A stretch of 64,000 nt of DNA from Candidatus Omnitrophota bacterium (GTDB lineage Bacteria > Omnitrophota > Gorgyraeia > Duberdicusellales > Duberdicusellaceae): positions 13,868 to 77,867 of the forward strand of contig JAFGCB010000025.1 of NCBI GenBank assembly GCA_016932855.1, written 5' to 3'. Positions within the stretch are counted from its first letter, which is position 1; each line of letters opens with the position of its first letter. Of the stretch, positions 2,265 to 57,482 are shown one piece after another. The notes under the pieces are model-generated. The model was not told the DNA's origin and did not search any database. It saw only the letters and a list, made by a program, of their open reading frames with translations. Position numbers and translations under genes: made by a program.

Positions 2265-3874
2265 TTAGAGCCATGTCGATAAGCAGATTATTAACCCGGA
2301 AAACGCGCCGAGAGTTTAAAGATTTAACCGAGGTATTGTCCTATCAGGCGGAATACAGCCCTAGTAAGCCTTTCATAATATTCGGCCAGAAGAGGATAAC
2401 TTTTAAAGAACTGGATTTTTCAGCCGGTCGACTCGCCGCTTTTTTATCTCTTCAAGGCGTAGCAAAAGGCGACAGGGTCTGCCTTTGGATGTACAACTGC
2501 CCGGAGTTTGTCATTTCTTATTTCGCGATTCTCAAATTAGGCGCGACTGTGGTCCCGATTAATAATATGTTTAAGCGGGAAGAAGCAAAATATATCATTG
2601 AAGATGCGGAGTGCGGAGTTCTGCTGTTTTCGCCGGAGAAAATCGAAGATTGCCTGAATTTAAACTTAAGGGTAGCAAGCCTTGATAAGATTATATCTTT
2701 TTCTTTCAGCAAGGAAGTTTACCCGGAGGTCGCCGACTTGTATGAGGCAATAGATAATAATGAGGTTCTTGGTGAAAAGGCCGAAATCGACCCTGATGAT
2801 CTTGCTGAAATCCTGTATACTTCCGGAACTACCGGAAAGCCTAAGGGAGCGTGTCTTAGCCACAAGAATCTGATTTCCAATGTTGAAGATTGCCGGGTTA
2901 TTATCAGGGCAACCGCCAAAGATACCTTTATATGTTTTTTGCCTTTATTCCATTCTTTTGCATCTACGGTCTGCATGCTTTTTCCTTTGTATGTAGGCAG
3001 TTCCACGGTAATCTTTAGGGCAATAAGGCCTTTTAAACGGGTCTTAAGAAGTATCCGTAAAAACCGGATAACTATATTCGTGGGAGTGCCTTCCATATAT
3101 TCCCTTTTGAAGGATATGAAGCTGCCTTGGATTTTAACGACGTTGCTTAGGCCTTTATTTATTCCTTTACGCGTATGTATTTCAGGAGCCGCCGCTCTTC
3201 CTGTTAATGTCGCACCTGTATTCGAAAGGAAATTAAAAGTCCCTCTTTTAGAAGGTTACGGCTTAACCGAGACCTCTCCGGTAGCTACTCTAAACCCTTT
3301 GAGGGGAGAGCGAAAACCCGGTTCGATCGGCCTGGCCTTACCTTCAGTAGAACTTAAGGTTGTAAATCGCAGCGGAGAGCCGCTTGAAAGAGGCGAAATC
3401 GGAGAGCTTTTAATAAAAGGGCCTAATGTAATGAAAGGTTATTTTAAGATGGAGCAGGCTTCAGCCGAGGTTATCGAGAAAGGCTTTCTTCATACCGGCG
3501 ATTTAGCCAGAATAGACAACCAGGGTTATGTTTATATTGAGGGCCGGATAAAAGAGATGATAAACGTAAGAGGTTTGAATGTCTACCCTAAAGAGATAGA
3601 GGATGTTTTGTATCAACTTACCTTTGTTAAAGAAGCCGCGGTCGTGGGCGTAAATCACCCTAAGAAAGGGGAGGTTCCTATAGGGTTCGTGGTTCTTAAG
3701 GATAACCAAACAAGCGACTCCGGACAGATTCTTAAGTTCTTAAGAGAGCATTTAGCTCCCTTTAAAGTGCCCTTAAGAATAGAATTCCGCGATAATCTTC
3801 CTAAAAACACCACCGGCAAGATTTTAAAATACGTTCTCAAGCAGCAGCTAGAAGCAGCGTTATTCAGCCGCTAA
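2261..3874 (+). CDS. AMP-dependent synthetase/ligase (acyl-CoA synthetase family)
   Basis: 537 aa with the YTSGTTGKPKG AMP-binding motif and a C-terminal GKILK motif. The start overlaps the upstream stop (ATGA). Confidence 0.85.
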   Translation: MIRAMSISRLLTRKTRREFKDLTEVLSYQAEYSPSKPFIIFGQKRITFKELDFSAGRLAAFLSLQGVAKGDRVCLWMYNCPEFVISYFAILKLGATVVPINNMFKREEAKYIIEDAECGVLLFSPEKIEDCLNLNLRVASLDKIISFSFSKEVYPEVADLYEAIDNNEVLGEKAEIDPDDLAEILYTSGTTGKPKGACLSHKNLISNVEDCRVIIRATAKDTFICFLPLFHSFASTVCMLFPLYVGSSTVIFRAIRPFKRVLRSIRKNRITIFVGVPSIYSLLKDMKLPWILTTLLRPLFIPLRVCISGAAALPVNVAPVFERKLKVPLLEGYGLTETSPVATLNPLRGERKPGSIGLALPSVELKVVNRSGEPLERGEIGELLIKGPNVMKGYFKMEQASAEVIEKGFLHTGDLARIDNQGYVYIEGRIKEMINVRGLNVYPKEIEDVLYQLTFVKEAAVVGVNHPKKGEVPIGFVVLKDNQTSDSGQILKFLREHLAPFKVPLRIEFRDNLPKNTTGKILKYVLKQQLEAALFSR

Positions 3875-42168: not shown

Positions 42169-42266
42169 GATAAATTATTTGATTATCGGGTAAGAAGCAA
42201 CGATGAAGCGATTTACCTGTTCATTATAAACTTGTTTAAATTAAACTTTTATCTAGGAGGTGAAAG

Positions 42267-56797: not shown

Positions 56798-56879
56798 TTT
56801 ATAAATTATTTTCTTCATTTATCTCACCGTAAACGTTTCATTTTTTTTTCGAATATTTGAGAAAAAGGGTTGACAGGTT

Positions 56880-56908
56880 TTTTAAAATTTGTTACATTAA
56901 ATATTGTA
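56880..56908 (+). promoter_or_regulatory. Sigma70-like promoter TTGACA, 17 nt, TACATT
   Basis: ttgacaggttttttaaaatttgttacatt lies about 45 nt upstream of a strong SD and the lysine-rich micro-ORF. Confidence 0.5.
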
Positions 56909-56953
56909 AGGAAAATGTTTTAAAAGTTATTCATCCAACAAAAAGGAGGTGAG

Positions 56954-57004
56954 AATGGCAAAGAAGAAAGCAAAGAAAAAGGCAACAAAGAAAAAGAAGA
57001 AATA
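56954..57004 (+). CDS. Lysine-rich micro-ORF MAKKKAKKKATKKKKK (16 aa)
   Basis: AAAGGAGGTGAGA ATG with ideal spacing, its own promoter upstream and an intrinsic terminator about 90 nt downstream. Confidence 0.35.
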
Positions 57005-57091
57005 AGACAGCGATCACCTTGAGTTAGAAGCACTAGAAAAAGACAGCGACGAAAAAAAAAGAGAAGACAACAAAGAAAGTTATTAATAAAA

Positions 57092-57120
57092 GCCTGCCTG
57101 TAAAACGGCAGGCTTTTGTT
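57092..57120 (+). terminator. Rho-independent terminator closing the micro-ORF unit
   Basis: gcctgcc tgtaaaac ggcaggc followed by ttttgtt. Confidence 0.7.
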
Positions 57121-57482
57121 ATCAGATCTACCGAAAAGGGAACGCTTTATTTTTAATTGTGTAAATGAAAAAGTAAACTCCTTAAAGACAGAAGGCTTCG
57201 GTATAAAGGCCAATAATATTCAGGTTTGTAACTATCTGTTCAGCAAGTAGTTGCGAAGACTGTTTCCATAGGGTTTCCTGTTGATTTCAAATCGGGCTTT
57301 TTTCGAATTTCGCGGCGTTTTGGACTTCTCTGCAGCATTCTTATTTGTGTTTCAGTTTTGCTTAATTTTCAATTGACTTATACCTCAGCAATAGGTATTC
57401 TAGTATTCGTTCTTATCAGATTGAGGAATCTTAACACACCTTTTTGAATGCTTTTCATGACAAATTTACCGGCGAGATTGCT

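What the first reader, a model, noticed from the sequence alone, without database searches (positions are those of the whole stretch)
56880..57120. Self-contained transcription unit encoding a lysine-only micro-peptide, MAKKKAKKKATKKKKK
A near-consensus promoter (TTGACA, 17 nt spacer, TACATT) is followed by a 45-nt leader and then the strongest SD in the window (AAAGGAGGTGAGA) feeding a 16-codon ORF that is 69% Lys (AAG/AAA runs). About 90 nt further on there is a clean intrinsic terminator. If the TAA were read through, the in-frame continuation is strongly acidic (DSDHLELEALEKDSDEKKREDNKESY) and ends at a second TAA just before the terminator. I offer three possibilities: a poly-basic peptide such as a ribosome-associated or nucleic-acid-binding micropeptide (compare bS22-like tiny basic proteins); a lysine-codon-sensing leader or stalling element, since poly-A tracts provoke ribosome sliding; or an sRNA whose ORF is incidental. 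The unit sits between ybeY and uvrA, but its own terminator argues it is independent.
Basis: seen in the sequence. Interest (0 to 1): 0.55.

Follow-up and report, generated by a model that had tools for sequence, protein, structure and literature searches.

The report
Conserved gene for an oligolysine micropeptide
Between ybeY and uvrA of an Omnitrophota bacterium lies a tiny gene, with its own strong promoter, ribosome-binding site and terminator, that encodes a 16-residue peptide made almost entirely of lysine. The same unannotated gene sits next to uvrA in five related genomes and similar ones occur in many phyla, which suggests an overlooked class of genetically encoded polycations.

Summary
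Window 56870-57117 holds a TTGACA-17-(TG)TACATT promoter, the only exact AAGGAGGTGA in 64 kb, a 16-codon ORF (56955-57005, MAKKKAKKKATKKKKK) and an 11-bp terminator.

The window is from a Candidatus Omnitrophica/Omnitrophota MAG. Five distinct relatives (UvrA 72-76% identical) carry the same unit just upstream of uvrA. Their ORFs are 15-22 codons and use only M, A, K, T and V. Promoter, SD, ORF and terminator are conserved (identity 0.65-0.91). Both UTRs are not (0.33-0.39). The terminator shows six compensatory pairs.

It is therefore a conserved small coding gene. It is not an sRNA, not a riboswitch and not a classical attenuator: no antiterminator exists and uvrA has its own promoter. Readthrough into the acidic frame is unsupported.

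A pattern scan found many similar stand-alone poly-K micro-ORFs (10-60 aa) in Planctomycetota, Verrucomicrobiota, CPR, DPANN archaea and phages. They have strong SDs and avoid long A-runs. None that I looked up is in a 15-billion-protein collection. The same MAKKKAKKK motif forms N-terminal tails on HU, SWIB and bacterial histone-fold proteins.

Best reading, which is inferred: an abundant free oligolysine polycation that binds nucleic acids. Function is untested.

The parts
56859..56866 (+). A-rich element (GAGAAAAA) just upstream of the -35 hexamer. It may be a UP-like element.
   Evidence: GAAAA is invariant in all six Omnitrophota copies (alignment A3). Its function is inferred.
56870..56898 (+). 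Sigma-70-type promoter: -35 TTGACA (56870-75), a 17-nt spacer with conserved TTTTNAAAATTTG, an extended -10 TG (56890-91), and -10 TACATT (56893-98).
   Evidence: 10/12 match, TG present. Mean pairwise identity is 0.85 across six genomes.
56905..56942 (+). 5' UTR. The transcription start near 56905 is inferred. The sequence is not conserved.
   Evidence: Mean pairwise identity is 0.39. The fold is weak.
56943..56952 (+). Extended Shine-Dalgarno AAGGAGGTGA. The GGAGG core lies 5 nt before the ATG.
   Evidence: It is the only exact copy in the 64 kb window. AAAGGAGGTG is invariant in six genomes, and the SD-to-ATG segment has identity 0.91.
56955..57005 (+). 16-codon ORF encoding MAKKKAKKKATKKKKK, ending in TAA. 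It uses 7 AAG and 4 AAA codons, and its longest A-run is 5.
   Evidence: Syntenic ORFs of 15-22 codons in L200, L201/L202, L203, L204 and L205 use only M, A, K, T and V. Long A-runs are avoided.
57006..57087 (+). 3' UTR. It is purine-rich, unstructured and not conserved. It contains a 9-A run (57052-57060) and repeats of ORF-like words (CAACAAAGAAA, AAGACAGCGA). It may be a decayed second poly-K ORF.
   Evidence: Identity is 0.33. The other frames read KKTATKKKEKTTKK but have no start codon. L205 has an intact second basic micro-ORF at this position.
57088..57121 (+). Intrinsic terminator. The stem pairs 57088-57098 with 57107-57117, followed by a U-rich tail. Its symmetric A/T flanks give it a bidirectional look.
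   Evidence: -18.5 kcal/mol. Covariation across six genomes: 11 pairs, 100% paired, 6 pairs with changes on both sides, 0 of 500 shuffles as good.

Best explanation
This is a genuine, independently transcribed micro-gene. A strong promoter makes a transcript of about 215 nt. A full-length anti-SD complement loads ribosomes efficiently onto a 16-codon ORF. The product is a roughly +12-charged, unstructured oligolysine peptide, AKKKAKKKATKKKKK, after the removal of Met that is expected before Ala.

Shown:
- The unit and its ORF are conserved next to uvrA in a family of Omnitrophota.
- The conservation pattern is that of a coding gene.

Inferred:
- The peptide is abundant and acts as a diffusible polycation that binds nucleic acids (nucleoid DNA and/or RNA) non-specifically, neutralising charge and compacting or protecting them.
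- In effect it would be a free-standing, minimal version of the lysine-rich tails of H1-like (Hc2/BpH1), HU, SWIB and bacterial histone proteins.
- What is selected is composition and charge, not sequence. That would explain why length and residue order drift while K content, start context and expression signals stay fixed.
For: - Anatomy is as described.
- Synteny: the order dnaE-hup-hisS-aspS-LysM-phoH-HD-ybeY-[unit]-uvrA-TPR-exbB is kept in L200, L201/L202, L203 and L204 (UvrA 74-76% identical). In L205 (72%) the upstream genes differ but the unit is still upstream of uvrA.
- Segment conservation: promoter 0.85, SD..ATG 0.91, ORF 0.65 and terminator 0.71, against 5'UTR 0.39 and 3'UTR 0.33.
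- Composition: six peptides of 15-22 aa contain 72 K and only A, T or V otherwise, with no E, D, R or G, and all keep frame. K-only composition stops exactly at the stop codon.
- Codon order: K codons are arranged to avoid long A-runs. Across the six ORFs the summed maxima are 34 against 44.8 in shuffles (P=0.002). In 71 class members observed<shuffled in 63 and > in 4 (p=4e-12). Long A-runs are known to cause ribosome sliding (PMC4363877).
- Terminator covariation.
- Wider class of stand-alone poly-K micro-ORFs. An SD match of at least 5 nt occurs in 79%, against 14% of control ORFs. Neighbour orientation is random and 24 of 54 downstream genes are convergent, so most are not leaders. In one CPR pair the ORFs differ by about eight synonymous changes and an in-frame 12-nt insertion, with no amino-acid replacement.
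- The same MAKKKAKKK motif is the N-terminal tail of HU (PF00216), SWIB (PF02201) and bacterial histone-fold proteins that match PDB 8cmp, 8fvx and 9qt0.
- Hc2 is a DNA/RNA-binding protein built of lysine-rich pentamers and varies in length (PMC2848022).
Against: - There is no direct evidence of transcription, translation, peptide stability or nucleic-acid binding.
- A peptide of 15-22 aa may be degraded quickly.
- Lysine is not replaced by arginine, even in GC-rich class members. That could equally point to a lysine-specific (tRNA-Lys-sensing) role.
- In twelve loci, most labelled Planctomycetota, the poly-K unit sits next to lysA.
- Neighbouring genes show no consistent link to nucleoid functions. 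UvrA, RecG, RmuC, ParA and HU appear only sporadically.
- Homology between the Omnitrophota unit and poly-K ORFs of other phyla cannot be established for such low-complexity sequences. They may be convergent and have different functions.
- The class survey was seeded with MAKKKAKKK and was cut at 120 rows, so it is biased.
Confidence: 0.5

Rival explanations
1. A lysine or Lys-tRNA-sensing regulatory transcript. Translation speed through the Lys codons would control termination, mRNA fate, or a trans-acting attenuator-derived RNA. This would be like an orphan leader peptide, comparable to rnTrpL/peTrpL of Sinorhizobium.
For: - The ORF is a run of Lys codons followed by an intrinsic terminator.
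- K is never replaced by R, in the six Omnitrophota ORFs or in GC-rich class members.
- Twelve loci (most labelled Planctomycetota) place a poly-K unit with a structured, conserved 3'UTR directly upstream of lysA (TIGR01048, 472 bits).
- There is a precedent for leader transcripts acting in trans (PMC10117765).
Against: - No antiterminator exists. The only alternative partner for the terminator's 5' arm is a 5-bp pairing 115 nt away.
- The stretch between stop codon and terminator is the least conserved part of the unit (0.33).
- The downstream gene is uvrA, about 365 nt away, with its own conserved TTGACT-17-TATTCT promoter.
- No lysine-related gene lies nearby.
- Even in the lysA-linked loci, lysA has its own conserved promoter after the terminator.
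- 24 of 54 class members face a convergent gene.
Confidence: 0.15
2. A stoichiometric ribosome component or ribosome-associated factor, of the kind of the tiny basic proteins bS22, bL37 and bTHX that were found only by cryo-EM.
For: - The peptide is very small and very basic, with expression signals stronger than those of groES.
- It is conserved within a bacterial family.
- Such genes are typically unannotated.
Against: - Peptide length (15-22 aa) and residue order vary among genomes whose UvrA is 72-76% identical, with no fixed positions beyond MAKK. Ribosomal proteins are normally conserved in sequence.
- There is no linkage to ribosomal-protein operons.
- Class members gave no match to any solved chain, though low-complexity filters make this weak evidence.
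Confidence: 0.15
3. An exported or toxic cationic peptide, either antimicrobial or predation-related, or a type-I-toxin-like product.
For: - Oligolysines are membrane-active polycations (general knowledge).
- Omnitrophota are proposed predators or parasites (general knowledge, not tested here).
- Phage contigs also carry poly-K micro-ORFs.
Against: - There is no signal peptide and no hydrophobic segment (the sequence itself).
- No adjacent transporter, immunity or antitoxin gene or antisense RNA was seen.
- Type I toxins are hydrophobic.
Confidence: 0.05
4. A non-coding sRNA whose ORF is incidental.
For: - The transcript would be short with its own terminator.
- It is purine-rich and unstructured, with ARN-like triplets.
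Against: - Only the promoter, SD, ATG, ORF and terminator are conserved. Both UTRs are near background.
- There is no Rfam match.
- The strict codon periodicity (G only at third positions, no E/R/G codons) ends at the stop codon.
Confidence: 0.03
5. Programmed readthrough or frameshifting that yields a longer basic-acidic protein.
For: - The in-frame continuation of 26 codons is acidic and ends at TAA TAA just before the terminator.
- A-rich codons can be slippery.
Against: - The continuation is not conserved in sequence, length or frame in any relative.
- A-runs inside the ORF are kept at 6 or fewer, which is the opposite of a slippery site.
- TAA is a normal stop in this genome (19 of 45 long ORFs).
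- The other two frames contain stops.
Confidence: 0.02

Closest known systems
Histone H1-like lysine-rich repeat proteins: Chlamydia Hc2/HctB, Bordetella BpH1 and Burkholderia Hc2-like proteins (PMC2848022; Pfam PF07382)
   Same: - Short-period repeats of lysines spaced by A, V, T or P.
- No acidic residues.
- Frequent in-frame length variation.
- Non-specific DNA/RNA binding.
- A long class member (L015) weakly hits PF07382 (20.4 bits, below the cutoff of 40).
   Different: - Hc2 is 165-237 aa, has two positive charges per pentamer, and has conserved non-repeat ends.
- The window peptide is 16 aa with 3-5 K per unit and nothing else.
- No detectable homology.
Lysine-rich low-complexity tails on nucleoid and repair proteins: HU, SWIB and bacterial histone-fold proteins, and the PAKKA repeats of mycobacterial Ku (PMC3553676)
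   Same: The identical MAKKKAKKK... motif and composition, occurring in the phyla that carry the free-standing micro-ORFs. These tails modulate DNA binding.
   Different: In those proteins the tail is fused to a folded DNA-binding domain. In the window it is the entire gene product.
Small basic DNA-condensing peptides: protamines, adenovirus mu peptide, Coxiella ScvA (from my own knowledge, not tested here)
   Same: Tens of residues, extreme positive charge, nucleic-acid condensation by charge neutralisation.
   Different: Those are Arg-rich or Arg/Gln-rich and are tied to development or virions. No bacterial Lys-only peptide of 15-22 aa is known to me, and none turned up in nine literature searches that ran.
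Amino-acid biosynthesis leader peptides and attenuators (thrL, hisL, trpL; Rfam Thr_leader and others)
   Same: A tiny ORF made of a run of one amino acid's codons, with a strong SD, followed by an intrinsic terminator.
   Different: - No alternative antiterminator and no cognate operon downstream.
- The spacer between stop and terminator is not conserved.
- The weak Rfam Thr_leader hit covers only the terminator hairpin (26.6 bits against a threshold of 55).
Tiny basic ribosomal proteins bS22, bL37 and bTHX (own knowledge)
   Same: Fewer than 35 aa, highly basic, and missed by gene callers.
   Different: Those are mixed R/K sequences conserved in order and length. Here only composition is conserved.

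Membership tests
Self-contained bacterial small-protein gene | Own sigma-70-type promoter | tested here: met
   TTGACA-17-TG-n-TACATT. Identity 0.85 across six genomes.
Self-contained bacterial small-protein gene | Shine-Dalgarno at functional spacing from a start codon | tested here: met
   AAGGAGGTGA is unique in 64 kb and lies 2 nt before the ATG (GGAGG core 5 nt before). It is invariant in relatives.
Self-contained bacterial small-protein gene | ORF conserved in relatives with a coding-type pattern of change | tested here: met
   Six syntenic ORFs of 15-22 codons are all in frame and use only M, A, K, T and V. AAA/AAG vary and A-runs are avoided. UTRs are not conserved.
Self-contained bacterial small-protein gene | Own intrinsic terminator | tested here: met
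   -18.5 kcal/mol hairpin. 6 of 11 pairs show compensatory changes.
Self-contained bacterial small-protein gene | Peptide actually produced | not testable with these tools
   No transcriptome, Ribo-seq or proteome is available. Trypsin-based proteomics would not detect it anyway.
Leader peptide / transcription attenuator | Run of codons for the regulatory amino acid | tested here: met
   11 Lys codons out of 16.
Leader peptide / transcription attenuator | Mutually exclusive antiterminator and terminator structures coupled to ribosome position | tested here: not met
   Only a 5-bp long-range alternative exists. The segment between stop and terminator is not conserved.
Leader peptide / transcription attenuator | Cognate biosynthetic or transport operon immediately downstream on the same transcript | tested here: not met
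   Downstream are uvrA, with its own conserved promoter, then a TPR protein and exbB.
Lysine riboswitch and other Rfam families | Match to a covariance model at or near its gathering score | tested here: not met
   Nothing above threshold. The best hits cover only the terminator.
Hc2/BpH1 H1-like proteins | Lysine-rich short-period repeats with A/V/T/P spacers and no acidic residues | tested here: met
   AKKK-AKKK-ATKKKKK. Relatives show the same pattern. Compare PMC2848022.
Hc2/BpH1 H1-like proteins | Protein of about 150-240 aa with conserved non-repeat regions and detectable homology (PF07382) | tested here: not met
   The peptide is 16 aa. Class members gave no Pfam or NCBIfam hits. Only a sub-threshold HC2 hit was found, for the 159-aa L015 protein.
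Hc2/BpH1 H1-like proteins | Binds and condenses DNA/RNA | not testable with these tools
   Requires biochemistry.
Tiny basic ribosomal proteins (bS22/bL37/bTHX) | Sequence and length conserved among relatives | tested here: not met
   15, 15, 16, 19, 20 and 22 aa, with different residue order.
Tiny basic ribosomal proteins (bS22/bL37/bTHX) | Similarity to a ribosomal chain of a solved structure | tested here: inconclusive
   The 16-aa peptide is too short to submit. Class members of 20 and 36 aa gave no PDB match, but HMMER filters low-complexity sequence.
Type I toxins / small membrane proteins | Hydrophobic transmembrane segment | tested here: not met
   The sequence has no hydrophobic residues other than Ala.

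The most novel reading that the evidence does not exclude
Free-standing, ribosomally made oligolysine peptides of 10-60 aa form a widespread class of genetically encoded polycations. They would be 'proteinaceous polyamines' or minimal protamines, used by Omnitrophota, Planctomycetota, Verrucomicrobiota, CPR bacteria, DPANN archaea and some phages to neutralise and compact nucleic acids. The class has gone unrecognised because gene callers skip low-complexity micro-ORFs and trypsin destroys the peptides.
Probability: 0.35. Interest if true: 0.85.

Novelty: new variant of a known kind. Interest (0 to 1): 0.7.

Why it matters
If the peptide is made, this would be one of the smallest conserved protein-coding genes known to me, and its product is essentially pure charge.

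It exposes a double blind spot.
- Annotation: none of 26 related peptides of 20-144 aa is present in a 15-billion-protein collection. NCBI annotates only the SWIB domain of a protein whose N-terminal half is poly-K.
- Proteomics: trypsin cuts after every lysine, so these peptides would not be seen.

It also offers a simple, testable idea for how ultra-small or nucleoid-condensing microbes balance nucleic-acid charge. In addition, it gives a natural example of how cells encode long lysine runs without ribosome sliding, by interleaving AAG with AAA.

Tried and rejected
- Rfam, at both gathering and permissive thresholds, on the region and the whole window: only terminator-level noise. Rfam on twelve lysA-linked loci: nothing.
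- ybeY-based search for relatives: only an identical contig (L001, uninformative) and a distant one without the unit (L002). The UvrA-based search was the one that found syntenic relatives.
- Exact look-up of the 7TM-HD protein failed.
- Pfam, NCBIfam and PDB searches with poly-K peptides returned no hits, probably because of low-complexity filtering.
- Exact look-ups of 26 class peptides found only the SWIB fusion.
- Nine literature searches that ran found no description of stand-alone poly-K micro-ORFs or of a lysine leader peptide.
- An ORF-unbiased metagenome scan with the conserved promoter motif was too unspecific.
- Attenuator hypothesis for the window: rejected for lack of an antiterminator and of a cognate downstream gene.
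- Cis-attenuator reading of the lysA-linked units: weakened by a conserved lysA promoter downstream of their terminator.
- Pseudogene or N-terminal-remnant reading, for example of a K-tailed HU or histone: rejected, because only about 80 nt separate the stop from the terminator and relatives show the same short ORF.
- Minus-strand ORF 56920-57213 (97 aa, F/L-rich): this is the antisense shadow of the purine tract and is not considered real.

Full report
**What is in the window.**
- A -35 TTGACA (56870-75), a 17-nt spacer and a -10 TACATT (56893-98) preceded by TG. This is the best promoter-like site in the 2 kb scanned (10/12).
- The extended Shine-Dalgarno AAGGAGGTGA (56943-52).
- ATG at 56955 opening MAKKKAKKKATKKKKK, closed by TAA at 57003-05.
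- A purine-rich 82-nt trailer.
- An 11-bp hairpin, AAAAGCCTGCC/GGCAGGCTTTT (57088-57117; -18.5 kcal/mol).

The flanks are phoH, a 7TM-HD gene and ybeY upstream. Downstream is uvrA (ATG 57483), followed by a TPR protein and exbB.

**Is it more than chance?**
- The 10-mer SD occurs once in 64 kb. The runner-up, TAGGAGGTGA at 42254, serves groES.
- This is the only K-rich micro-ORF with an SD in the window.
- It lies in the most purine-rich 150 nt of the window (0.80).
- The K-only reading is not a by-product of purine richness. Purine-only codons are 11 K and 0 E/R inside the ORF, but 4 K, 6 E and 1 R in the same frame after the stop (p=0.004).

**What it is not.**
- Rfam finds nothing but weak terminator look-alikes.
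- Apart from the terminator the transcript is nearly unstructured. With the 3' arm withheld, the terminator's 5' arm finds only a 5-bp partner 115 nt away, so there is no antiterminator.
- The other two frames carry stops. The acidic in-frame continuation ends at TAA TAA.

**Organism and relatives.** A ybeY search gave only an identical contig and a distant genome lacking the unit. A UvrA search identified the source as a Candidatus Omnitrophica/Omnitrophota MAG (100% match to an NCBI protein). It also gave relatives at 69-76% identity.

Fetching their contigs showed the gene order dnaE-hup-hisS-aspS-LysM-phoH-HD-ybeY-gap-uvrA-TPR-exbB in L200, L201/L202, L203 and L204. In every gap there is a poly-K unit.

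| Locus | Peptide | Length |
|---|---|---|
| window | MAKKKAKKKATKKKKK | 16 |
| L200 | MAKKKKKAAKKKVAKKKKK | 19 |
| L201/L202 | MAKKKAAKKKTTKKKTAKKKKK | 22 |
| L203 | MAKKKKKKAAKKKAAKKKKK | 20 |
| L204 | MAKKKKKAAKKKKKK | 15 |
| L205 | MAKKTTKKTAKKKKK | 15 |

- In L201 a pipeline even called a 24-aa gene at this position.
- In L205 (72% UvrA identity) the upstream genes differ, but the unit still precedes uvrA.
- Two genomes at 69-70% (L206, L207) and L002 have another gene abutting uvrA and no unit there.

**Pattern of conservation.** In the six-way alignment (A3) the mean pairwise identities are as follows.

| Segment | Identity |
|---|---|
| Promoter | 0.85 |
| SD..ATG | 0.91 |
| ORF | 0.65 |
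| Terminator | 0.71 |
| 5'UTR | 0.39 |
| 3'UTR | 0.33 |

- The six ORFs differ in length by whole codons. They use only M, A, K, T and V: 72 Lys and no Glu, Asp, Arg or Gly. AAA and AAG vary freely among them.
- The terminator helix is 100% paired. Six of its 11 pairs changed on both sides, and 0 of 500 shuffles did as well.
- The order of K codons keeps A-runs at 6 or fewer. Summed maxima are 34 against 44.8 in shuffles (P=0.002). Inside the window ORF the longest run is 5, while the untranslated trailer tolerates 9 A's. Long A-runs make ribosomes slide (PMC4363877), and cationic nascent chains slow elongation (PMC9207662). The codon pattern therefore fits selection for faithful translation.
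- Together this is the signature of a small coding gene, not of an sRNA.

- 71 hits are stand-alone ORFs of at most 60 aa with at least 45% K. They grade into 70-144-aa proteins made of (V/A/T)(A/T)KKK units.
- They come mostly from Planctomycetota, Verrucomicrobiota, Sumerlaeota, Bdellovibrionota-like lineages, Rokubacteria, CPR and DPANN archaea.
- An SD match of at least 5 nt occurs in 79%, against 14% of control ORFs in the same loci. For matches of at least 7 nt the figures are 41% against 1.8%.
- A-run avoidance is strong: observed<shuffled in 63 loci and > in 4 (p=4e-12).
- 38 of 71 have a simple terminator within 220 nt.
- Neighbour orientation is random, and 24 of 54 downstream genes are convergent.
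- A CPR pair differs by about eight synonymous changes and an in-frame 12-nt insertion, with no amino-acid replacement. Three betaproteobacterial copies are identical in peptide while their flanks diverge.
- Phage contigs carry some as well.
- None of 26 such peptides (20-144 aa) is in a 15-billion-protein collection. Pfam and NCBIfam give nothing.
- Caveats: the scan was seeded with the motif and was truncated. Low complexity also prevents any claim of homology across phyla.

**Clues to function.**
- The same N-terminal MAKKKAKKK... motif is fused to HU (PF00216). It is also fused to SWIB domains (PF02201). It is further fused to bacterial histone-fold proteins that match the solved bacterial histones 8cmp, 8fvx and 9qt0. 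All of these are nucleoid proteins.
- Chlamydial Hc2 and its relatives are built of lysine-rich pentamers with A/V/T/P spacers. They vary in length by in-frame repeat changes and bind DNA and RNA (PMC2848022).
- The PAKKA tail of mycobacterial Ku likewise tunes DNA binding (PMC3553676).
- I therefore infer that the 16-aa product is a free, highly expressed oligolysine polycation that binds nucleic acids non-specifically.
- What is shown is the conserved coding unit. The binding role is inference.

**Rivals.**
- *Lysine-sensing leader.* This is attractive because twelve loci (most labelled Planctomycetota) place a poly-K unit with a conserved, structured 3'UTR next to lysA. However, lysA keeps its own conserved promoter after the unit's terminator. 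In the window there is no antiterminator and no lysine gene, and uvrA has its own conserved promoter.
- *Stoichiometric ribosomal protein.* This is disfavoured by the variable length and residue order.
- *Toxin or export.* There is no hydrophobic or signal segment.
- *Readthrough or frameshift.* This is contradicted by the non-conserved trailer and by A-run avoidance.

**Novelty and limits.** I found no description of stand-alone oligolysine micro-genes, or of a lysine leader peptide, in nine full-text searches that ran. Those searches cover only open-access papers. I file the unit as a new variant of the known kind 'lysine-rich nucleoid polycations', and not as a member of the Hc2 family, because it fails that family's size and homology criteria. 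No expression or biochemical data exist, so function remains a hypothesis at about 0.5 confidence. The existence of a conserved coding micro-gene I hold at about 0.85.

Noticed in passing
L117, L031, L078, L022, L108, L075, L039, L021, L088, L070, L065 and L100 (for example L117:3243-3438, minus strand): Most of these MAGs are labelled Planctomycetota. They carry a poly-K micro-ORF of 22-53 aa with a conserved 5'UTR and SD (CCAAAAGGAGGTGAC). The 3'UTR is conserved and structured: compensatory hairpins, a helix pairing the stop-codon region UAGCGUAAC with GUUACGCG, and a terminator ATGGAAGGTT..AACCTTCCATTTTTT. The unit always lies upstream of, and in the same orientation as, lysA (TIGR01048, 472 bits). 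lysA has its own conserved promoter, TTCTTGCAAT-N17-TATACT. There is no Rfam match. This could be a lysine-responsive element or a dual-function RNA.
   Followed up: partly
L043 about 3031-3130; L057 about 3551-3640; L205:3440-3556: Tandem pairs of basic micro-ORFs sit on what looks like one transcript, each with its own SD. Rokubacteria: MAKKKAKKKKK followed by MAKKKAAKKKKKK, and MAKKKAKKKGKKR followed by MAKKKATKKKKK. Omnitrophota L205: MAKKTTKKTAKKKKK followed by MRKCTARKKTTKRATKKK.
   Followed up: no
window 57006-57087: The 3'UTR repeats words from the ORF: CAACAAAGAAA at 56983 and 57068, and AAGACAGCGA at 57004 and 57040. In another frame it reads KKTATKKKEKTTKK but has no start codon. 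It looks like a decayed second poly-K ORF.
   Followed up: partly
L008, L052 (HU); L029, L081, L090, L096 (histone fold); L015, L089 (SWIB): MAKKKAKKK-type lysine tails are fused to the N-termini of nucleoid proteins in Planctomycetota and Bdellovibrionota-like MAGs. NCBI annotates only 73 aa (the SWIB domain) of the 159-aa L015 protein and drops the poly-K half.
   Followed up: partly
L198, L124, L180, L191; L158, L178 (IMG/VR contigs): Phage or viral contigs carry poly-K micro-ORFs of 22-25 aa (MAKKKAKKKKKTKKKRKTKKKRK and similar) with an AAAGGAGGT SD. In other viral hits MAKKKAKKK* is the C-terminal tail of a longer protein.
   Followed up: no
L033 and L113 (Paceibacterota / Parcubacteria): Micro-ORFs that combine a lysine head with a cysteine cluster: MAKKKAKKKACCCCKK and MAKKKAKKKSGCCGCS.
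   Followed up: no
L094, L095, L120 (Betaproteobacteria, including a Nitrosovibrio MAG): The 14-aa ORF MAKKKAKKKGKKKK is conserved even in its choice of K codons, with a single synonymous change, while the flanking DNA diverges. This lineage has cultivable relatives and could serve for experiments.
   Followed up: no
window 57122-57482: About 360 nt of apparently non-coding DNA separate the terminator from uvrA. It includes a TTGACT-17-TATTCT promoter (57373-57401) that recurs upstream of uvrA in L200, L201 and L204. The rest is unexplained.
   Followed up: partly
window 56870-56898 and the equivalent sites in L200-L205: The promoter spacer (TTTTNAAAATTTG) is as conserved as the hexamers, which hints at an additional binding site or at DNA-shape constraints. 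The motif alone is too common in metagenomes to be diagnostic.
   Followed up: partly
L019 about 3766 (minus strand): A 10-aa MAKKKAKKKK ORF lies 526 nt upstream of a deoxyhypusine-synthase-like gene (PF01916), an enzyme family that modifies a lysine using spermidine. This may be coincidence.
   Followed up: no
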